In this document: positions 103-10,260 of the stretch, piece after piece | Layout of the letters: every line of letters begins with the position of its first letter | Position numbering within the stretch: position 1 is the first letter of the stretch | Source of the DNA: a virus | Taxonomy: Duplodnaviria; Heunggongvirae; Uroviricota; Caudoviricetes | Reading direction: 5' to 3' (one strand) | IMG/VR virus record: IMGVR_UViG_2740892031_000004 | Length of the DNA: 15,282 bases | Translations under genes and position numbers: made by a program | The notes under the pieces: model-generated | What the model saw: the letters and a program-made list of their open reading frames with translations, nothing else | Databases searched by the model: none | Told to the model about the DNA's origin: nothing

Positions 103-429
103 TCAAAGACGTGACGGCGTAAAGATAAATTGTCTCTTCACTCCCTGACAGGGGCGATTCTTTTCAAATCGCCATTTCGCCATGGCCTTCACCACTTCAT
201 CACGAAACAAATTATGAGGCTCTGAGCGGAGAAAAACGATCCGTGTCACAGTCCCATCAGCACCAATATCGAACTTAACCTCAACCAGCCCCTTGATATA
301 ATTTGCTGCAGCATATTCCGGATATCGTGGATACACCGTCACTAATTGCCGGGGCTCATCAGCTTTTTGCTGCGAGCATCCCACTGCCAGGACAGATAAC
401 AGAAAAAGTAGTAAAAGGCGTCTTTTCAT
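103..429 (-). CDS. lipoprotein with TonB C-terminal domain (108 aa)
   Basis: ATG at 427-429 with AGGA 8 nt upstream. N-terminus MKRRLLLLFLLSVLAVGC is a signal peptide with lipobox LAVGC. The remainder matches the TonB_C pattern (VYPRYPEYA...IKGLVEVKFDIGADGTV...FLRSEPHNLFRDEVVKAMAKWRFE). The ORF track extends to a GTG at 483, but the internal ATG with RBS and signal peptide is the better start. Confidence 0.7.
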   Translation of the reverse strand: MKRRLLLLFLLSVLAVGCSQQKADEPRQLVTVYPRYPEYAAANYIKGLVEVKFDIGADGTVTRIVFLRSEPHNLFRDEVVKAMAKWRFEKNRPCQGVKRQFIFTPSRL

Positions 430-739: not shown

Positions 740-1213
740 TTATTTCAGGCACTGAGTGCGGATATAGTCCTGTGCCCCTTCCAGTTGCTTGTGCATCGTC
801 ATCAGCCGCTCTCTGAGGGTGAAATAATCCCGTGTAACGGTGTCTGCCAGTTGGGGGCCGGTTGCATTATCCACGCCGGAGGTGGTGGGGGCTTCACGCA
901 CGGAGCCTGGACAGGTGGCGTTGATCCGCAGGCGCTTACGACCAGCGGCAACGTCAGCGCGAAGAGTTTCATTTTCAGCTCTCGCATCGGCTAATTCCCT
1001 CGAGTATTTTGCATCGAGCGCAGCAACATCGCGCTGGCGCACCTGCATATCAGTAATGGTTGCGTTCGCCAGCTTCAGTTCACTGGCTTTGTTATCGCGC
1101 TGCGCTTTGTAGGTAATCGCGTTATCACGGTAATGGTCTGTTGCCATCCACAGCGCACCACAGGCCACCAGCAGAATAACGATAAACGCGGAAAGCATTC
1201 GGTTTATGTTCAC
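740..1213 (-). CDS. Rz: i-spanin Rz (lysis cassette)
   Basis: Translation closely matches recalled lambda Rz ([74 protein letters not shown]). Start ambiguous: GTG at 1211-1213 overlaps the upstream stop, or ATG at 1196-1198. Confidence 0.9.
802..987 (-). CDS. Rz1: o-spanin Rz1, embedded in Rz in the +1 frame
   Basis: [22 protein letters not shown] is a lipoprotein signal with lipobox; the proline-rich [26 protein letters not shown] matches recalled lambda Rz1. Lies entirely inside Rz. Confidence 0.85.
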
Positions 1214-1341
1214 CCCAGCAACCCCGACGAAGACAACATCATCCAGGCCATGGAAAGAAAAAGAGCAACCAGCATTAGTGAAAATGAAATGCCGACAATT
1301 ACACAGAGGATCTTCGCCAGCGTTATGAGTTTGTCTGACAT
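1210..1341 (-). CDS. small hydrophobic protein (43 aa), unknown function
   Basis: ATG at 1339-1341 with GGGAGG just upstream; [43 protein letters not shown] is essentially one transmembrane helix. Stop TGA overlaps the Rz GTG. Sits between endolysin and Rz. Confidence 0.4.
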
Positions 1342-1355
1342 GCTTAATCCTCCCT

Positions 1356-1538
1356 TCACGATTTCAACGCAATGACCAGTTTTGCCAGCCCATACAGCAT
1401 CGGGGACACAGCAACACCGACCGCCACCCACTTAATGGCAAAAGCCAGTGCTCTGCTGATGTCATCAGTTACAGGCGCTTTCAGTTCAAGGCCATTTTTC
1501 ATAGTCAACCTCAACAGAATTCGTTTACACTTCGCCAT
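1356..1538 (-). CDS. small protein (60 aa) with C-terminal hydrophobic segment, unknown function
   Basis: ATG at 1536-1538 with AAGGGAG 4 nt upstream; [60 protein letters not shown]. The ORF-track version extends to a GTG at 1571. Confidence 0.4.
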
Positions 1539-1694
1539 GTTCTCCCTTGCCTTACTCAAGGTCAGAAACACAAAACCTCGCTTGGTGCCAACAAACGGGG
1601 TTTTTACTTTTATTCACTTACGTTTCGCCAGTTCGCAGGATTTCGTGTTATCCGCCCGCGTGGCCATTCCTCATTTTTCAGCAAAATATTCTGC

Positions 1695-2228
1695 TTATCT
1701 GTCGATACCCCAGCACGCCAGCGCGCTCTCCTGGTCACGACGGGATACCTGACCGTAACAGTTGTTTGAACGAATACGGCAGTCTCTGCCACCGTCCTTA
1801 ATCCACCAGCGAATCGCTTCGCAGGCACCTTTTCGATCACCAGCATTAATTCGTCTGTAAAACGTCGACGGGAAACACTTACCGGGACCAATGTTGTACG
1901 GACAGAATGACGCGATCCCCGCTTTCTGGGGTTCGGTCAGCGGCACTCTGATGTTTTTCTCCACCCACGCCAGCGCTTTATCACGCTCAATGGCGTTAAC
2001 CTGGTCGCATTTTTCCTTCGACAACTTCATGCCCGGAACGACAGGTTTGCCATCCACCATGATGGCACCACGGCAGATGGTCCAGATACCTGCACCATCA
2101 CGGTATGCTGTGGTGTGGTTGCCTTCCTTTTCATCCAGAAACTGGTCGAGAATGTCAGGCGCAGGCGCACCAGCGGCAATCAGCGCCAGAACGGCAGCCG
2201 ACAGGCCGTATTTGATTTTGGTGTTCAT
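1695..2228 (-). CDS. R: phage lysozyme (T4-lysozyme / GH24 family) with N-terminal SAR-type hydrophobic segment
   Basis: 177 aa. N-terminal GLSAAVLALIAAGAPA hydrophobic stretch, then a Glu-8aa-Asp-5aa-Thr catalytic signature (DEKEGNHTTAYRDGAGIWTICRG) as in P1 Lyz / R21-type SAR endolysins. ATG at 2226-2228; no obvious SD in the AT-rich 36-nt spacer upstream. Confidence 0.9.
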   Translation of the reverse strand: MNTKIKYGLSAAVLALIAAGAPAPDILDQFLDEKEGNHTTAYRDGAGIWTICRGAIMVDGKPVVPGMKLSKEKCDQVNAIERDKALAWVEKNIRVPLTEPQKAGIASFCPYNIGPGKCFPSTFYRRINAGDRKGACEAIRWWIKDGGRDCRIRSNNCYGQVSRRDQESALACWGIDR

Positions 2229-2264
2229 GGATATATTAAATATTCAGCCGCTGTCCCTGGCCCA

Positions 2265-3155
2265 CTAAATACGCACTTTAAGATAAGTCAGCCCCGGATG
2301 AAGCCAGTAAGCCGGCACTTTTTTAAAGGGTGGAGTATTAAAATCACGAAGAAGAGCCTCCCGCACAATTGCATCCTTATCAGCACCACTGGCCAGCGCT
2401 TCAATCTCAGCGGCTACCTGAAGATATCCCATGCAACGGCCAACGCGCTTCATCAGCCCCTGCTTTTTATTGTTCTTCAGGTAATCAATGGCAAATTCAA
2501 TGAGCTCCTCACTGTGCTGGTGCGATGGAGGTGTTACTTTCCCATTTTCTGAGATGGTTATTTTCCCAGCATCACCGGATACAACAAAGGATGGCCGGTT
2601 ACACTCCCATTCCAGCTCACTGAAATTATCATTATGAATACTGAAACACTCTGCGAGATTTCTGCTCATCACTTTCCGACAATAATCGTCAAACGCAGCA
2701 AACTGCTTTTCATCACCAGAAGGCACCAATATCGACCATTTCTTATTCAGCTCAACGACGTAGCTCTCCAGTTTTTCAATACGTGATTCAACATCATCTT
2801 TTTCTGACCGCAGTGTTGACGGCGGCATCTTCAGAGAACAAGTAATTCTTCCCGGTAGCTTTCCTTTGTAGGTTATCAACACATCCTGCGCCTCTAAAAT
2901 TACGGGGCGCTTTTCCGGCAACGGTTCGTTCCATTCACATAACCCGGCAGCAACATCCATGAAAAACTGCTTCGCCTGCTTTTTCGCCTCAGCTTCGTAA
3001 AACTCCAGCGTGGCACCTTCAGTACGGTCAAGACTAATCGCCACATCTGGCAACAACAGCGACGCTTGCCCGTCACCTTCCGGCTTCACAGTAACAGTAA
3101 CCTTATCCCCGTAATTATTTATCCCCTTAACAACCAGTTCATATTTTTTATTCAT
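2265..3155 (-). CDS. hypothetical protein (296 aa) inserted between holin and endolysin; no recognised domain
   Basis: Long clean ORF. ATG at 3153-3155 lies 4 nt after the holin TAA stop (3160-3162), with a GGGGAGAG SD inside the holin 3' end. No signal peptide or transmembrane segment seen. I do not recognise the sequence. Confidence 0.7.
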   Translation of the reverse strand: MNKKYELVVKGINNYGDKVTVTVKPEGDGQASLLLPDVAISLDRTEGATLEFYEAEAKKQAKQFFMDVAAGLCEWNEPLPEKRPVILEAQDVLITYKGKLPGRITCSLKMPPSTLRSEKDDVESRIEKLESYVVELNKKWSILVPSGDEKQFAAFDDYCRKVMSRNLAECFSIHNDNFSELEWECNRPSFVVSGDAGKITISENGKVTPPSHQHSEELIEFAIDYLKNNKKQGLMKRVGRCMGYLQVAAEIEALASGADKDAIVREALLRDFNTPPFKKVPAYWLHPGLTYLKVRI

Positions 3156-3159
3156 CACT

Positions 3160-3375
3160 TTACTCTCCCCGCGCCGCCTTACGCCGGTCCTCTTTGATTT
3201 TGAAATACAGGTTAGTCAGGTACGTCAGCAGCCCAAACAGCAGACTCCCCAGCACGCCTATTGCCGCCCACTGAGACGGGGAAACCCTGTCCAGCAACTG
3301 CAGGAACCAGTAGCCCGTTCCCACCGCTGACGTGGTGTATGACACACCTGTTGTGATTTTTTCCATCTGGTACAT
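3160..3375 (-). CDS. S: class II holin, phage-21 S21 pinholin type, with dual-start motif
   Basis: [71 protein letters not shown] is near-identical in pattern to recalled S21 / EssD. Two in-frame ATGs (3373-3375 and 3364-3366) fit the holin/antiholin dual-start arrangement; GGGAGA SD upstream. Confidence 0.85.
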
Positions 3376-3451
3376 ACCCCGTCTCCCGTTATCCGGAAGC
3401 TCACAACAATATAAAGACCACCGGCACACACCGATGGTCCCTTGCGCAGGC

Positions 3452-3697
3452 TTACATCATCATGTCGCTGTCAGGTGTGGGTTCACCGCCATCTGAAGCA
3501 CTCCCGTCACCCGCGATACCTTCCGGCTCCGGAACCGCTGGTACGCCCAGCAGCTCATCCAGAATGGCATCCACTTCTGCATCAAGACGCGCCTCAAGGT
3601 TCTGGCGGAGTTTCTGTTTCAGTGCGCTCAGGACTTCTTCAGAGCGCAGGACTTCCTTCACTGCCTCAGCAGTGACCAGGGATGTGATTTCTGACAT
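3452..3697 (-). CDS. small acidic hypothetical protein (81 aa)
   Basis: ATG at 3695-3697; [51 protein letters not shown]... with an acidic, Pro/Gly-rich tail ending MMM. Resembles the small conserved ORFs found just upstream of S in Stx-type prophages (family not confirmed). Confidence 0.5.
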
Positions 3698-3734
3698 GGG
3701 ATTTTCTCGTTGAAAGGTGTTGTCAAGAAAGTGA

Positions 3735-3917
3735 CTACGGAATGAGCGGATCTTCGGGTTTGCTTCCGGCTGACTGACTGGCGCTGATTCTCTCAGCGGC
3801 CCTTTTATCAATCTGCCTGCGCCAGAAATCGCGCACTGCCCTGTACCCACCCGAAAGAAGATACATAACACAGACTGCCATACAGAAGTACAGCATTACC
3901 TGATGAATAAATGTCAT
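3735..3917 (-). CDS. small putative membrane protein (60 aa)
   Basis: ATG at 3915-3917 with weak SD; N-terminal hydrophobic helix (VMLYFCMAVCVMYLLSGG) followed by a basic tail. Confidence 0.35.
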   Translation of the reverse strand: MTFIHQVMLYFCMAVCVMYLLSGGYRAVRDFWRRQIDKRAAERISASQSAGSKPEDPLIP

Positions 3918-3935
3918 AATTTCTTACCGTTATGG

Positions 3936-3941
3936 TTGACA
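3936..3941 (+). promoter_or_regulatory. candidate -35 hexamer (TTGACA) for a short + strand transcript
   Basis: Exact TTGACA consensus at 3936-3941, but only weak -10 candidates 16-18 bp downstream (TTAGAA / TAGAAA). Confidence 0.2.
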
Positions 3942-4015
3942 ATGAGAACTGTTTTCATTTAGAAATGATTGATGTCGAAAGCATCTTTTCTTTACATTCT
4001 CCATTGGGATTACCT

Positions 4016-4052
4016 CCGCCAGCTTCCATTCCTGCCGCTGGCGGCTTTTTTT
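4016..4052 (+). terminator. intrinsic terminator on + strand, convergent with nanS-p 3' end
   Basis: 8-bp stem CCGCCAGC (4016-4023) / GCTGGCGG (4037-4044), then a T7 run (4046-4052). On the minus strand the run is A7 upstream of the hairpin, so this acts only for + strand transcription. Confidence 0.45.
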
Positions 4053-4053
4053 A

Positions 4054-6015
4054 TCATGCCGCGATGTCCGCGTTGTTCACTTCCACCTTCACACTGTCAA
4101 TCAGCAGCGTATATGTCGCCGCCTTTGATATGCCTGTCAGTTGCAGTTTGTCCGCCGCCCCTGATGCCGGAGATTTCACCAGTGTGAACGGCGTCCCCCG
4201 TTTCTCATCCAGTACCGGCGTCACCTGAATGCTGTTGTTTCCGGCAAACTCAAAAGCCAGTGTGTGCCATCCGTTATCAAAGACCCCGAACGTATCCAGC
4301 TTCGCATTCGGCTTCTTGTGGTGCATCGCGTTCAGGTTCGTCGCATCCGTCTGCAGGAAGAAGGACATCAGCATGTCGTTGCCTTCCTCTGCCAGCGTCA
4401 CTCCCTCCGGCAGGGACGACAACTGCCAGTAAATGCCCAGGGCAAACTGATTCGGCACCAGTGAACCCGGCAACTTAAACCGTACGCTCACACGTCCCCC
4501 CTTCTTCAGTAACTCCACTCCCTGTCCGGCTGCATCATGCTCCAGAAACCAGATGTGGTTTTCCGGTTTATTCAGTTGCAGGGCCTTACCTCCCGTAGCC
4601 CCCGCATCACTGACCACCGCTTCAGCAATGTTTTTGTTAACATTGTCTCCGCTCGCCGGTTTGTGATAATAGCGCCAGCCCTGTGATGCCAGGTCTTCGC
4701 CGGACGCCAGCAGACTCATCAGGGTTCGGTTACTGACCGGGGCTTCCGGCTCTCTCTCCGTACCTTCACCGGAAGGTCCGGTGGGCTTCACCGTATCAGG
4801 CTGTTTTCCGGTAATGAATTCAGCGTTTCTCCCGGCATGCACAAGAATCGCCGTTGCCAGACGGTCGGAAATAATCCCACGACGTGCCCATGATCCAAAA
4901 TGCGTTTTACGGTCGGCCGTCGTCCAGGTTTTGGCGTCCGTTCGACCACCGGCTCCGTAATACCCAATATCCGCAACATCCGGATCTTCTGACGGCTCGT
5001 TGGTACCCACATTTCGCCCGTTTTCATCCGTCATAAACGGCACAAAGAAGATTTTTTTTGCGGATTTCGTCTTGTATGCACCATACACCGCATCGTATTG
5101 CGAAGAATAAGTCTGCTTCCAGTAGTAGGTCGTGTCGCCACAAATCCAGGGAACCGATGACGGAGAGCCCCCGAGACACTGACCTCCGAATTCCGACAGG
5201 TCAGAACGATATTTTTCCACCATGGAATCAAACAGCCCCGGCTGAGTGGCGTATGCACCCTGTTTCAAATCAAACTCGCCCTGCATCCAGACCACTGCAA
5301 GCAGAATATTTTTAGGGTTGGCCTTCAGTGCGGCCTGAGTACGGGTAAGCAGGTCCTTGTACAGTGGCTTATCAACACCCCAGCGTGCCGAGGTCTCGCT
5401 TGCGCTGGTGGATTCGCTGAAGGTACCTTCATCGCCCGCCAAAAATGCAGAACCACCACGGCAGCACGGAACCAGAAGAATACCGGCATTCGCCGGAATA
5501 AACGGCAACAATTTCTTCGCGATATGTAATCCCTGCCCCACGCATCCATACTGAGCTGCGCTGGCTTTCGGGTGTGAAAACTTACTCAAATCCTGAACAT
5601 CATGCAGGCAGTGGTCCGCAGGAATAATGTCATTGTAGTTACAGGACGCACCACCCGGCGTGACAGTGCTGCGACGCGCCAGCTGTTTAATACGCGGGTC
5701 CGGACGGTCATATGTCTCCGGCAGCGGAAGCCCTTCACCATACGCCATACCGTTTGACCGCCCGGCTAGGGCAACAACAAAGTAATACTCCGGGTTGCTG
5801 GTGGTGCTGATAACTGCGCCTTCTCCATCCGACGGCTTCACCACCACAGGTGTGGTGACATCACCTTCCGCCGCAATGGCCTGCATCAGGGTATAAGGCG
5901 TGATGGCCACCGGACTGCCAAATGGCTGCCACCCCTCCTTCAGTTTTTGTGTCAGTCGTTTCGCAAGGTCTGACGGCGATGCCGCCCTGACAACATCATA
6001 GTGTTTAAATGCCAT
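4054..6015 (-). CDS. nanS-p: prophage NanS-p-type sialate O-acetylesterase (DUF1737 N-terminus plus SASA esterase region)
   Basis: 653 aa from ATG at 6013-6015 (ORF track gives 658 aa from 6030, which lacks an SD). N-terminus MAFKHYDVV...EGWQPFGSPV matches the DUF1737 pattern seen in the large yjhS/nanS-like proteins downstream of stx in EHEC prophages. Same position relative to Q and S as in Stx phages. Confidence 0.75.
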   Translation of the reverse strand: MAFKHYDVVRAASPSDLAKRLTQKLKEGWQPFGSPVAITPYTLMQAIAAEGDVTTPVVVKPSDGEGAVISTTSNPEYYFVVALAGRSNGMAYGEGLPLPETYDRPDPRIKQLARRSTVTPGGASCNYNDIIPADHCLHDVQDLSKFSHPKASAAQYGCVGQGLHIAKKLLPFIPANAGILLVPCCRGGSAFLAGDEGTFSESTSASETSARWGVDKPLYKDLLTRTQAALKANPKNILLAVVWMQGEFDLKQGAYATQPGLFDSMVEKYRSDLSEFGGQCLGGSPSSVPWICGDTTYYWKQTYSSQYDAVYGAYKTKSAKKIFFVPFMTDENGRNVGTNEPSEDPDVADIGYYGAGGRTDAKTWTTADRKTHFGSWARRGIISDRLATAILVHAGRNAEFITGKQPDTVKPTGPSGEGTEREPEAPVSNRTLMSLLASGEDLASQGWRYYHKPASGDNVNKNIAEAVVSDAGATGGKALQLNKPENHIWFLEHDAAGQGVELLKKGGRVSVRFKLPGSLVPNQFALGIYWQLSSLPEGVTLAEEGNDMLMSFFLQTDATNLNAMHHKKPNAKLDTFGVFDNGWHTLAFEFAGNNSIQVTPVLDEKRGTPFTLVKSPASGAADKLQLTGISKAATYTLLIDSVKVEVNNADIAA

Positions 6016-6208
6016 GGTTCTTTCCACCATCTGAAAAATAATTCTTTAAAATACCTGACATGTAATACAGAAAAAACACAAAACCATACCTTAAATAAAA
6101 ACCTCATCATCAAGCAGATATGCATGGATAAACTACAAGACGAGATATAAACCACCCTGCATTTAAATAAACAATAAACAACATCAGAAAAATAATTCTG
6201 CTCTATGG

Positions 6209-6275: not shown

Positions 6276-6611
6276 ATGAAGTGGATTGTGATTGATACAG
6301 TTATCCAGCCATCATGCGGAATATCTTTTTCAGTCATATGGAGTAAAATAAAATTAATAATCTGGTATCAATCGGATGCTTTCTTACCTCCTGAAAGTAT
6401 ATTTACACTGACTCACACAGGTATCATGCTCAATAACAAAGTGCTACCTGTAACCATTTACAACGTAGCACCATTCAATAAAACATTCTGGAATTTAATC
6501 AAAAACAGCCAGGAATGTCCTACAAATACAGATAACGTATTGAATGAATGCTTTAATAACCGTTGCACTCTGCAAATATGTCCTTATGGACTAAAACAAC
6601 AAAGTCCATAA
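6276..6611 (+). CDS. hypothetical protein (111 aa) in an AT-rich islet; only convincing + strand gene outside IS2
   Basis: ATG at 6276 with AAGGA SD 6 nt upstream. The AT-rich coding sequence contrasts with flanking phage genes. C-terminal cysteine cluster (C81, C92, C97, C102). Stop codon lies inside a perfect 12-bp hairpin. No homolog recognised. Confidence 0.45.
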
Positions 6612-6625: not shown

Positions 6626-6667
6626 TCTGACAAAATCAATATAAACAGCCCCTCCGGAGAGGGGCTG
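6626..6667 (-). terminator. candidate intrinsic terminator (minus strand)
   Basis: GC-rich 9-bp stem CAGCCCCTC / GAGGGGCTG (6646-6667) with 4-nt loop, followed on the minus strand by UUUAUAUUGAUUUUG. Confidence 0.4.
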
Positions 6668-6981
6668 GAGAGTGGCGCTATGTGCCATTGCATGATGCCG
6701 GGTGCCTCCCGGTGAGTTCAGTATCAGCACCTGAACCCGCACAGAAAGGATAAGGGTCGGTGACAAAACACCAGTTGCTGATTGCCCCTCCGCACAGGGG
6801 GATTCACCATGCCAGTTTCTTTTAACAAACTCCCCGCAAACCAGACAACAGTCAACCGCCTGAATTGTGAGGTATTTAAAAATTTCTCCAGATAACTGAT
6901 ACCCGGCTAACAGTCTGGCGTTTTCTTTTTCAGCAACGGGAAAGCAACAACCACCACACCCACCAGCCGCCCATTTACCAC

Positions 6982-9848: not shown

Positions 9849-10004
9849 TTACTCCTCAGGTTCGTAAGCTGTGAAGACAGTGACCTCCGTCTGGCCGGTT
9901 CGGATTCGTACCTCGCAGAGGTCTTTCCTCGTTACCAGTGCCGTCATTATGACGGTTAAACAGATGACGATCAGGGCGATTAACATCGCCTTTTGCTGCT
10001 TCAT
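9849..10004 (-). CDS. hokD: Hok/Gef-family type I toxin (51 aa)
   Basis: Minus-strand translation MKQQKAMLIALIVICLTVIMTALVTRKDLCEVRIRTGQTEVTVFTAYEPEE matches the Hok family and is nearly identical to my recollection of HokD/RelF. AAGGAG SD 9 nt upstream of the ATG at 10002-10004. Below the 60-aa cutoff, so absent from the ORF track. Confidence 0.85.
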   Translation of the reverse strand: MKQQKAMLIALIVICLTVIMTALVTRKDLCEVRIRTGQTEVTVFTAYEPEE

Positions 10005-10260
10005 AGCCTGCTTCTCCTTGACCTTTCGGTCCGTAAGAGGCTAATCTCTATGTGTCGCATAGATATGGCCTCAGATTAATGTTAAGCGTCTTGCAGGACC
10101 GCGTAATGTTAACTGGGGCTTTTCTCTATCTGCCTTTTGGTGTTCATGCCTGAGACAGATAGCCTCAAGCACCCGCAGTCATTCTACTTAACTAAGATTT
10201 CCCCGCAAACCGTTTTTGTCCGGCACAGTAAATATCCAACTAAACCAATGGCGTTCGCTG
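10005..10260 (-). promoter_or_regulatory. hok mRNA leader region (expected site of mok overlap and sok-type antisense control)
   Basis: Non-coding stretch upstream of hok. Hok loci normally carry a long structured leader with an antisense RNA; the individual elements were not resolved here. Confidence 0.3.

What the first reader, a model, noticed from the sequence alone, without database searches (positions are those of the whole stretch)
2265..3158. Unrecognised 296-aa gene wedged between pinholin and SAR endolysin
In the lambdoid and phage-21 lysis cassettes I know, the holin and endolysin genes abut or overlap. Here a 296-codon ORF separates them. Its ATG (3153-3155) starts 4 nt after the holin TAA, with its SD inside the holin coding sequence, which implies co-translation with the lysis genes. 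The endolysin behind it follows a 36-nt AT-rich spacer with no clear SD. The protein has no signal peptide, no transmembrane segment, and no motif I can place. Possibilities are a lysis-timing regulator, a late-expressed exclusion or anti-defence factor, or a defence cargo gene in the lysis hotspot.
Basis: partly seen in the sequence, partly recalled or inferred. Interest (0 to 1): 0.75.

Follow-up and report, generated by a model that had tools for sequence, protein, structure and literature searches.

The report
YdfR-family gene in prophage lysis cassette
The gene between the holin and the endolysin is real and intact, but it is a long form of the catalogued, functionally unsolved YdfR/DUF1327 prophage family that fills this same slot in E. 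coli K-12 and many Shiga-toxin phages, so it is common and not new.

Summary
It starts 4 nt after the pinholin TAA and has the strongest SD in the cassette. It is soluble and under purifying selection.

It is not unrecognised. Residues 1-100 are Pfam DUF1327 (E 2.7e-40), the whole protein is phrog_1085, and RefSeq names it "YdfR family protein".

The holin-YdfR-endolysin order is common. It occurs in the K-12 Qin prophage (essQ-ydfR-rrrQ), in H-19B, BP-4795, Stx2 phage 86 and mEp460, and in about half of complete E. coli genomes. Where the gene is absent, the endolysin ATG sits at the same coupled position.

The protein is a mosaic of four modules: N, linker, coiled coil and C. These occur in many combinations. 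The N-plus-C architecture is also kept in Salmonella prophages at about 30% identity, there upstream of the holin. The C domain has no Pfam family and no fold match, and RefSeq often leaves it unannotated.

The only functional lead is published. K-12 YdfR binds the RNase E catalytic domain through its first 72 residues.

My best guess, at low confidence, is a dispensable late-expressed cytoplasmic accessory factor that acts on host RNase E, not a lysis effector.

The parts
2265..3155 (-). YdfR-family (DUF1327) gene, long four-module form, 296 aa plus TAG stop
   Evidence: - ORF found.
- PF07041, E 2.7e-40; phrog_1085 matched 1-296 of 296.
- RefSeq name 'YdfR family protein'.
- dN/dS below 1.
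2931..3155 (-). N domain (aa 1-75): three beta strands plus a long helix; the DUF1327 core
   Evidence: - 46% identical to K-12 YdfR over 74 aa.
- AF2 pLDDT about 70-88.
- hhalign against the Salmonella N domains gives probability 87%, E 4e-6.
- In K-12 YdfR the first 72 aa suffice to bind RNase E/G (PMC13232886).
2802..2930 (-). Linker module L (aa 76-118), PEKRPVILEAQDVLITYKGKLPGRIT...
   Evidence: - AF2 pLDDT below 50.
- Present or absent independently of the other modules among homologues.
2640..2801 (-). Helical, coiled-coil-like module CC (aa 119-172)
   Evidence: - Two long helices, 122-143 and 149-170, at pLDDT about 55.
- Site of variable insertions in homologues.
- dN/dS 0.4-0.9 for the middle region, aa 76-184.
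2268..2603 (-). C domain (aa 185-296): beta meander plus helices, basic (pI 9.2), motif KRxGRCMGxLQVAAEIE ... DFxxPPFK..P..W..PG..YLK.R
   Evidence: - AF2 pLDDT 80-95 in the core.
- No Pfam family and no fold match.
- dN/dS 0.18-0.37.
- Conserved in Salmonella homologues.
- Its DNA is present in 777 of 5426 E. coli genomes.
3165..3170 (-). Shine-Dalgarno GGGGAG for the YdfR-family gene, inside the holin coding sequence
   Evidence: - Anti-SD duplex of -8.5 kcal/mol.
- The junction GGGGAGAGTAA-N4-ATG is invariant in six cassettes, including one where the next gene is R.
3160..3375 (-). S21-type class II holin (pinholin), 71 aa with Met1/Met4 dual start
   Evidence: PF04971, E 7e-33; phrog_9876 and phrog_20, both holin.
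2229..2264 (-). 36-nt spacer between the YdfR-family stop and the endolysin start; no SD
   Evidence: - Anti-SD duplex of only -1.7 kcal/mol.
- ATATCCATG is conserved upstream of R in the YdfR-bearing cassettes aligned; K-12 has ATATCTATG.
1695..2228 (-). R21-type lysozyme with an N-terminal SAR-like segment, 177 aa
   Evidence: PF00959, E 2.4e-24; phrog_7, endolysin.
740..1213 (-). Rz i-spanin, with embedded Rz1 at 802-987
   Evidence: PF03245, E 2e-47; ORFs listed.

Best explanation
**Identity (near certain).** This is an intact, translated late-operon gene of a non-Stx lambdoid prophage. It encodes the long N-L-CC-C form of the YdfR/DUF1327 family.

**Expression (inferred from anatomy).**
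- The gene is transcribed only with the Q-dependent late transcript.
- It is translated from the strong SD buried in the holin's 3' end. In cassettes that lack the gene, the endolysin uses that same start site. The protein should therefore appear in the cytoplasm together with the holin.

**Mechanism (inferred, low confidence).**
- It is a dispensable accessory factor and not part of the lysis machinery.
- Its N domain docks on the catalytic half of host RNase E (and RNase G), as shown experimentally for K-12 YdfR.
- The basic C domain, whose fold matches nothing known, supplies a second binding activity for RNA or another partner.
- The result would be to alter decay of host RNA or of the long late phage transcript during the last phase of infection.
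- The two domains can also act separately, because phages carry N-only and C-only versions in the same slot.
For: **Identity**
- PF07041 at 137 bits and phrog_1085 matched full length.
- 46% identity to K-12 YdfR across the region that binds RNase E.
- Same essQ-ydfR-rrrQ layout in K-12 and in BP-4795, phage 86, Stx2_95, PhiR5_1, mEp460, 689R5 and Evi.

**Real coding gene**
- dN/dS is 0.18-0.64 in both domains.
- The N...C architecture is conserved at about 30% identity in Salmonella prophages.

**Late expression coupled to the holin**
- Invariant GGGGAGAGTAA-N4-ATG junction and an SD of -8.5 kcal/mol.
- No sigma-70-like promoter on the coding strand in 1400-4200.
- Salmonella homologues lie between Q and the holin.

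**Not a lysis effector**
- No transmembrane segment.
- About 70% of phage records with this holin lack the gene and have R directly at the coupled start.
- Overproducing K-12 YdfR causes no growth defect (PMC13232886).

**RNase E link (PMC13232886)**
- Two-hybrid signal with Rne1-597 and with Rng.
- Co-purification of Rne1-598 with Strep-YdfR.
- Residues 1-72 are sufficient.
- DNase-resistant nucleic acid co-purifies.
- The same paper cites T4 Srd as a phage protein that binds the N-terminal half of RNase E.
Against: **Weaknesses of the RNase E evidence**
- It comes from one study on a 46%-identical, 103-aa homologue.
- The full-length fusion gave a two-hybrid signal only with Rne1-597.
- Overproduction changed few transcripts.
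- The authors could not exclude that a contaminant carried the RNA.

**Nothing here tests binding by this protein.**

**Points against an adaptor that needs both domains**
- N-only, C-only and alternative-C versions occupy the same slot.
- The middle of the protein evolves almost neutrally.
- These facts are also compatible with a decaying or selfish mosaic.

**The C domain gave no functional clue**.
Confidence: 0.35

Rival explanations
1. It is a cytoplasmic regulator of lysis timing. The protein would bind the cytoplasmic tail of the pinholin, or the pre-export SAR endolysin, and tune when or how sharply lysis fires. T4 RIII and the mycobacteriophage Ms6 Gp1 chaperone are analogies recalled from memory.
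For: - Family members sit next to a holin in every locus examined: directly after it in Escherichia, and upstream of it, at most two small ORFs away, in Salmonella and in a viral contig.
- The 4-nt coupling to the holin suggests matched synthesis.
- Inserting the gene leaves R without an SD, which by itself should change the R:S ratio.
- A K-12 ydfR mutant was reported in an envelope-integrity screen. This is second-hand, from PMC13232886; it is not in the main text of PMC3879167.
Against: - No transmembrane or periplasmic part.
- No similarity to any PHROG in the lysis category or to any Pfam lysis family.
- Relatives accompany at least three unrelated holin families (PF04971, PF16080, PF05106) and different endolysins. 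That argues against a specific protein contact.
- Most phages with the same holin and endolysin do without it.
- Either domain can be missing.
Confidence: 0.2
2. It is a cargo (moron) gene in a recombination hotspot that acts in phage-phage or phage-host conflict, as a late-expressed exclusion or anti-defence factor. The swappable C-terminal modules would reflect an arms race.
For: - Extreme mosaicism: the N, L, CC and C modules occur in more than ten combinations, and one lineage has an alternative C module (P0058).
- Recombination breakpoints lie inside the gene: against L013, dS is 1.33 in the N domain and 0 in the C domain.
- The Q-to-lysis region also carries other cargo such as nanS-p, and stx in related phages.
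- The family is narrow and restricted to Enterobacterales.
Against: - No PADLOC match.
- No promoter of its own, so probably no expression in the lysogen.
- Both domains are under purifying, not diversifying, selection.
- No anti-defence library was available to search.
Confidence: 0.15
3. It has no function of its own. The ORF would be a tolerated mosaic remnant, kept open because it must be translated through to deliver ribosomes toward the SD-less endolysin start.
For: - R lacks an SD in every YdfR-bearing cassette aligned, and in K-12 the two genes overlap as ATGA.
- Lengths and truncations vary widely (72 to 333 aa).
- PGAP often treats it as a pseudogene.
Against: - dN/dS is 0.18-0.37 in the C domain and 0.30-0.64 in the N domain, which shows selection on the amino-acid sequence.
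- The two-domain architecture is conserved between Escherichia and Salmonella at about 30% identity, in a different position relative to the holin.
- AF2 predicts two confident folded domains.
- A 36-nt gap is poor for reinitiation.
Confidence: 0.1

Closest known systems
E. coli K-12 YdfR (b1555, P76160; Qin prophage), Pfam DUF1327
   Same: - Homologous N domain: 46% identity over 74 aa.
- Same slot between the S21-type holin essQ and the lysozyme rrrQ.
- Same start position 4 nt after the holin stop.
   Different: - K-12 YdfR has 103 aa and lacks the L, CC and C modules.
- Its stop overlaps the rrrQ start as ATGA.
- Other prophages fuse a K-12-type N domain to the same C domain as here (P0022). 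K-12 YdfR may therefore be a truncated form.
YdfR-family genes of sequenced phages: BP-4795 ORF47 (114 aa), an unannotated copy in H-19B, Stx2 phage 86 gp05 (268 aa), Stx2_95 BCI50300 (329 aa), mEp460 gp55 (104 aa)
   Same: - Same family, same slot and same coupling to the holin.
- Phage 86 and Stx2_95 carry both the N and the C domain: 71% and 78% identity over the full length.
   Different: - Module content differs. Phage 86 lacks CC, Stx2_95 has a 33-aa insert in CC, and most Stx1 phages have only N-L.
- None has an assigned function.
Salmonella enterica prophage hypothetical proteins (P0150, P0155, P0196, P0219)
   Same: Same N...C two-domain architecture, with the conserved C-domain motif and an N domain related by profile comparison.
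   Different: - Only 28-44% identity, and not recognised by the Pfam DUF1327 model.
- Encoded between the antiterminator Q and the holin, not between the holin and the endolysin.
- Many have a CxxC in the C domain that the E. coli proteins lack.
Phage T4 Srd (binds RNase E and stimulates decay of host mRNA)
   Same: It is a phage-encoded small cytoplasmic protein reported to bind the N-terminal half of RNase E (cited in PMC13232886). This is a functional analogy for the leading hypothesis.
   Different: - No similarity to any characterised family was detected.
- Srd is an early gene of a virulent phage, whereas this gene is late in a temperate phage.
- Any effect of YdfR proteins on RNase E activity is unproven.
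Cytoplasmic lysis regulators: T4 RIII antiholin co-factor and mycobacteriophage Ms6 Gp1 endolysin chaperone (recalled from memory)
   Same: Both are soluble proteins encoded within or beside a lysis cassette.
   Different: - No match to any lysis-category PHROG or Pfam family.
- No evidence of contact with a holin or an endolysin.

Membership tests
YdfR / DUF1327 (Pfam PF07041) | Match to the family HMM above the curated gathering score | tested here: met
   136.9 bits against a cutoff of 25, E 2.7e-40; residues 1-100 cover profile positions 1-88 of 93.
YdfR / DUF1327 (Pfam PF07041) | Homology to the name-giving protein, K-12 YdfR | tested here: met
   BLASTP gives 46% identity over residues 1-74, E 7e-21.
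YdfR / DUF1327 (Pfam PF07041) | Genomic position directly downstream of an S21-type holin in a lambdoid lysis cassette | tested here: met
   K-12 Qin, seven phage genomes and L013-L015 all show holin, 4 nt, then the YdfR-family ATG.
YdfR / DUF1327 (Pfam PF07041) | Binding of the RNase E catalytic half through the first 72 residues (the only experimental property reported for the family) | not testable with these tools
   Shown for K-12 YdfR only (PMC13232886). Here there is only sequence conservation of that region.
PHROG 1085 (long form, unknown function) | End-to-end match to the 296-position profile | tested here: met
   E 1.5e-189, residues 1-296 against profile 1-296.
Antiholins and lysis-timing regulators (S21-71 or S107 type, T4 RI/RIII, P1 LydB) | A transmembrane or periplasmic segment, or sequence membership in a lysis-category family | tested here: not met
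   The highest 19-residue hydropathy mean is 0.75. All PHROG hits are 'unknown function', and the only Pfam hit is DUF1327.
Antiholins and lysis-timing regulators | Changes lysis time when deleted or overproduced | not testable with these tools
   This needs prophage induction experiments.
Known anti-phage defence systems (PADLOC-DB v2) | Significant match to a defence-protein model | tested here: not met
   The best hit is PbeC at E 0.049 and 9.9 bits.
Characterised RNase E regulators (RraA, RraB, RapZ, T4 Srd) | Sequence or fold similarity to one of them | tested here: not met
   - No such family in the Pfam or NCBIfam scans.
- No significant PDB sequence hit.
- No significant structural hit.

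The most novel reading that the evidence does not exclude
The long YdfR form would be a two-part, phage-encoded adaptor for host RNase E, built into the lysis cassette. The DUF1327 domain would dock on the RNase E catalytic domain. The previously undescribed basic C domain would bind RNA or a second partner. Together they would protect or redirect decay of the 20-kb-plus late transcript (including stx in related phages) in the minutes before lysis. This would be the first RNase E modulator described in lambdoid or Shiga-toxin phages, and it would define a new protein fold.
Probability: 0.15. Interest if true: 0.7.

Novelty: new member of a known kind. Interest (0 to 1): 0.33.

Why it matters
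- **Scale:** the family sits in the lysis cassette of a large share of E. coli prophages. The ORF matches about half of complete genomes, including K-12 and Stx1, Stx2c and some Stx2a phages. No function has yet been assigned.
- **If it modulates RNase E or lysis:** it could affect toxin release and phage yield from pathogenic E. coli.
- **Practical gains from this work:**
  - The gene should be read as a modular N-L-CC-C protein.
  - The N-plus-C form is conserved between Escherichia and Salmonella.
  - RefSeq often truncates it to a 112-codon "pseudogene" and leaves the conserved C domain unannotated.
  - Its presence moves the endolysin off the strong ribosome-binding site it otherwise uses.
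- **As a discovery:** it is modest.

Tried and rejected
**Searches for a known family or fold: nothing found**
- NCBIfam and PADLOC scans of the protein gave nothing significant.
- Pfam scans of 12 C-domain homologues and of 8 divergent relatives found no family beyond DUF1327.
- PHROG hits for this protein and its relatives are all "unknown function".
- An HMM profile of 32 relatives against PDB sequences gave a best E-value of 0.13.

**Structure**
- The AF2 full-length model is mediocre (pLDDT 62, linker regions below 50).
- The C-fragment model is usable (pLDDT 77.7, pTM 0.66).
- Fold searches found nothing:
  - Foldseek against PDB with the full model: no hit at E ≤ 0.001.
  - Foldseek against BFVD: no hit.
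- afdb50 was not available.

**Wider homologues**
- The exhaustive search of 1.84 billion representatives found only 74 clusters.
- Profile searches with the C and N domains reached only Escherichia, Shigella, E. albertii, Salmonella and one Yersinia ruckeri protein. All are unnamed.
- The GTDB genome scan returned only three Escherichia/Shigella loci. The first attempt failed because the alignment had no stretch conserved enough.

**Literature**
- No paper links ydfR to a holin, and none uses the name "YdfR family".
- DUF1327 appears once, in passing.
- The envelope-screen paper does not mention ydfR in its main text.

**Ideas rejected**
- An antiholin with a membrane segment: there is none.
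- A frameshifted relic: the ORF is intact here and in 99.6-99.9% identical records that PGAP labels pseudo.
- The GTG at 3158 as the start: it is not conserved.

Full report
**1.

- The minus strand carries an uninterrupted ORF from 3158 (GTG) or 3155 (ATG) to the TAG at 2267-2265.
- The ATG is the start. All homologues begin at that codon, and the three bases before it are not conserved.
- Upstream lies a 71-aa S21-type class II holin (3160-3375; PF04971, E 7e-33). Downstream lies a 177-aa lysozyme with an N-terminal SAR-like segment (1695-2228; PF00959). Rz/Rz1 follow further on (740-1213; PF03245).
- The holin TAA (3162-3160) is 4 nt from the ATG, and GGGGAG (3170-3165) lies inside the holin gene.
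- Predicted anti-SD pairing is -8.5 kcal/mol for this gene. That is the strongest value in the cassette, against -7.4 for the holin and -1.7 for the endolysin.
- The 36-nt spacer before the endolysin has no SD. It is 47% GC, and only its 3' half is AT-rich.
- The protein is 33.4 kDa with pI 5.95 and has no hydrophobic segment. The highest 19-residue hydropathy mean is 0.75.
- No sigma-70-like promoter is found on the coding strand between 1400 and 4200.

**2. It is a coding gene, not a chance ORF or a relic**

- Against three diverged homologues, dN/dS is 0.30-0.64 in residues 1-75 and 0.18-0.37 in residues 185-296. The middle of the protein is less constrained, at 0.4-0.9.
- A stand-alone version of the C-terminal half, in phage Stx2_12E129, gives dN/dS 0.21 for the C domain at dS 0.39.
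- The nearest database cluster (97% identity, 296 aa) holds 962 sequences.
- 496 complete E. coli genomes hold at least 80% of the ORF.

**3. It is not unrecognised**

- Residues 1-100 match Pfam DUF1327 (PF07041) at 136.9 bits against a cutoff of 25.
- The whole protein matches phrog_1085 over 296 of 296 positions. That family has no known function.
- RefSeq calls such proteins "YdfR family protein".
- The name comes from E. coli K-12. The Qin prophage reads essQ (holin) - ydfR (103 aa) - rrrQ (lysozyme) - rzpQ/rzoQ, which is the same layout.
- The window protein is 46% identical to K-12 YdfR over residues 1-74.

**4. The slot is recurrent, and its content is modular**

*How often the gene is present*

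- 343 phage records carry this holin.
- 106 of them encode a YdfR-family protein. These include H-19B, BP-4795 (114 aa), Stx2 phage 86 (268 aa), Stx2_95 (329 aa), PhiR5_1 (211 aa), mEp460 (104 aa), vB_EcoS-689R5 and Evi (72 aa). In each one inspected, the gene begins 3-4 nt after the holin stop.
- In complete E. coli genomes the ORF matches 6175 places in 2703 of 5426 genomes. The holin matches 8848 places in 2452 genomes.

*What happens where the gene is absent*

- In Shigella phage POCJ13 the endolysin ATG sits at exactly the same position, after the same GGGGAGAGTAA-N4 junction.
- The YdfR-family gene has therefore taken over the endolysin's coupled, SD-served start.
- The endolysin alleles aligned behind it share an SD-less ATATCC-ATG context. 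K-12 has the one-base variant ATATCT-ATG, and there the two genes overlap as ATGA.

*Module content*

| Module | Residues |
|---|---|
| N | 1-75 |
| L | 76-118 |
| CC | 119-172 |
| C | 185-296 |

- Searching about 250 family members with these four modules gave many architectures: N, N-L, N-L-CC, N-L-CC-C (this gene), N-CC-C, N-L-C, CC-C, C alone and others.
- One lineage, P0058, has a different C-terminal module.
- Recombination breakpoints lie inside the gene. Against locus L013, the N domain has dS 1.33 while the C domain is identical.
- L013 joins a K-12-type N domain to the same C domain as here.

**5. The two-domain form is old**

- An exhaustive search of 1.84 billion representative proteins found only 74 clusters.
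- Profile searches reached only Escherichia, Shigella, E. albertii, Salmonella and one Yersinia ruckeri protein. None has a functional name.
- Salmonella proteins at 28-44% identity keep the C-domain motif KRxGRCMGxLQVAAEIE ... DFDNPPFK..P..W..PG..YLK.R.
- Their N domain is related to DUF1327 by profile-profile comparison, with probability 87% and E 4e-6.
- These genes lie between the Q antiterminator and the holin, upstream of it, next to holins of families PF04971 or PF16080.
- A viral contig has an N-domain relative two genes upstream of a PF05106 holin.
- What is conserved, therefore, is the promoter-proximal late-operon position beside the lysis genes. No particular holin or endolysin partner is conserved.

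**6. Structure**

- AlphaFold2 with 32 relatives gave a mediocre full-length model (pLDDT 62). It has two better-defined parts:
  - an N domain of three strands and a long helix (pLDDT about 70-88);
  - a C domain (pLDDT 75-92).
- The C-terminal fragment modelled alone reached pLDDT 77.7 and pTM 0.66. It shows a three-stranded meander followed by four helices.
- None of the following gave a meaningful match:
  - Foldseek against PDB;
  - Foldseek against BFVD;
  - a sequence profile against PDB;
  - Pfam scans of the C-domain relatives.
- The C domain is basic (pI 9.2), while the N domain is acidic (pI 4.8).

**7. Function**

*Published evidence*

The only experimental lead is PMC13232886 (RNA Biol 2026).

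- K-12 YdfR was recovered three times in a two-hybrid screen with RNase G as bait.
- It interacts with Rne1-597, and Rne1-598 co-purifies with Strep-YdfR.
- Residues 1-72 suffice for the interaction.
- DNase-resistant nucleic acid co-purifies with it.
- Overproduction is not toxic and changes few transcripts.
- The authors group it with proteins that might regulate the RNase E catalytic domain like T4 Srd, or present RNAs to it like RapZ.

*Inference*

Taken with the late, holin-coupled expression and the lack of any membrane segment, I judge the most likely role to be a dispensable cytoplasmic accessory factor acting on host RNase E. The C domain would provide a second binding activity. This is an inference at roughly one-in-three confidence. 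Nothing here tests binding by this protein.

*Rivals*

- **Cytoplasmic lysis-timing regulator.**
  - For: its adjacency to holins.
  - Against: it accompanies several holin families, it is absent from most phages with the same holin, and either domain can be missing.
- **Conflict or cargo gene.**
  - For: its mosaicism.
  - Against: no PADLOC hit, no promoter of its own, and purifying selection.
- **Functionless spacer ORF.**
  - Against: selection on the amino-acid sequence and conservation across genera.

**8. Verdict**

- The sequence observation is confirmed.
- The entity is a further member, the long form, of a catalogued family of unknown function. I file it as a new member of a known kind, of modest interest.
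- The open question is what YdfR proteins do, and especially what the undescribed C domain does. It remains unanswered and can be tested with the experiments listed.

Noticed in passing
L002 9004-9894 (NZ_CP031256) and L003 3004-3894 (NZ_CP060953); window 2265-2603: In 99.6-99.9% identical RefSeq records, PGAP annotates only the first 112 codons as a 'YdfR family protein' pseudogene ('missing C-terminus'), although the 296-codon ORF is intact. The C-domain DNA is present in 777 of 5426 complete E. coli genomes, and most sampled matches have no annotated feature under them.
   Followed up: yes
window 2229-2264 and 2226-2228; L016 2017-2023: The endolysin has essentially no SD (-1.7 kcal/mol) in this cassette, and the YdfR-bearing cassettes aligned share ATATCC-ATG before it (ATATCT-ATG in K-12). 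In a phage without the YdfR gene, the endolysin uses the strong SD inside the holin's 3' end. How R is translated here is unexplained.
   Followed up: partly
window 1356-1538 (-) and 1210-1341 (-): Two small ORFs (60 aa, phrog_1115; 43 aa, phrog_4906; both of unknown function) lie between the endolysin and Rz, where related phages carry the ant anti-repressor. Both have hydrophobic, transmembrane-like stretches, and the 60-aa ORF has a good SD (-8.4 kcal/mol).
   Followed up: partly
window 103-429 (-): A lipoprotein-like protein with a TonB C-terminal domain (PF03544, E 7e-13) follows Rz, near the position where Stx2 phage 86 carries bor.
   Followed up: no
window 6637-6841 (-) and 10002-10174 (-): There are two Rfam matches above gathering score. 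One is sRNA STnc100 (133 bits), upstream of nanS-p on the late-operon strand. The other is the sok antitoxin RNA (106 bits) of a hok/sok module.
   Followed up: no
window 6276-6611 (+): A 111-aa ORF on the opposite strand, between the antiterminator region and nanS-p, matches phrog_4407. The near-identical RefSeq record annotates it as anti-adapter protein IraM.
   Followed up: no
window 3413-3442 (-): A 13-bp-stem hairpin followed by a weak T-tract lies between the DUF826 gene and the holin start. It could be a Q-overridden terminator or a processing or stability element.
   Followed up: no
window 4054-6030 (-); L002 6143-8105: The NanS-p-type sialate O-acetylesterase gene is intact here (658 aa) but is annotated as frameshifted in the otherwise near-identical prophage of strain M16807. 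No stx genes are present in the window.
   Followed up: no
proteins P0150, P0149, P0167, P0188 (Salmonella and metagenome relatives); alignment A1 columns 395-405: Distant C-domain relatives carry a CxxC or CxxxC pair, and some have CxxCxxC, beside the conserved GRCMG cysteine and an invariant histidine. The E. coli proteins have SGADKD there instead, so a possible metal site was lost or was never essential.
   Followed up: no
protein P0047 (207 aa); protein P0058 (305 aa, seen on 275 contigs): P0047 contains an internal tandem duplication of the N-L modules. P0058 replaces the C domain with an unrelated module of about 95 aa that has no Pfam match.
   Followed up: no
L009 2585-2899 (-), L011 2352-2612 (-), L020 2445-2759 (-), L019 2044-2340 (-): Several cassettes with shorter YdfR-family genes carry an extra ORF on the opposite strand (annotated in one record as containing DUF1823) between the YdfR-family gene and the endolysin. 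The window has no counterpart.
   Followed up: no
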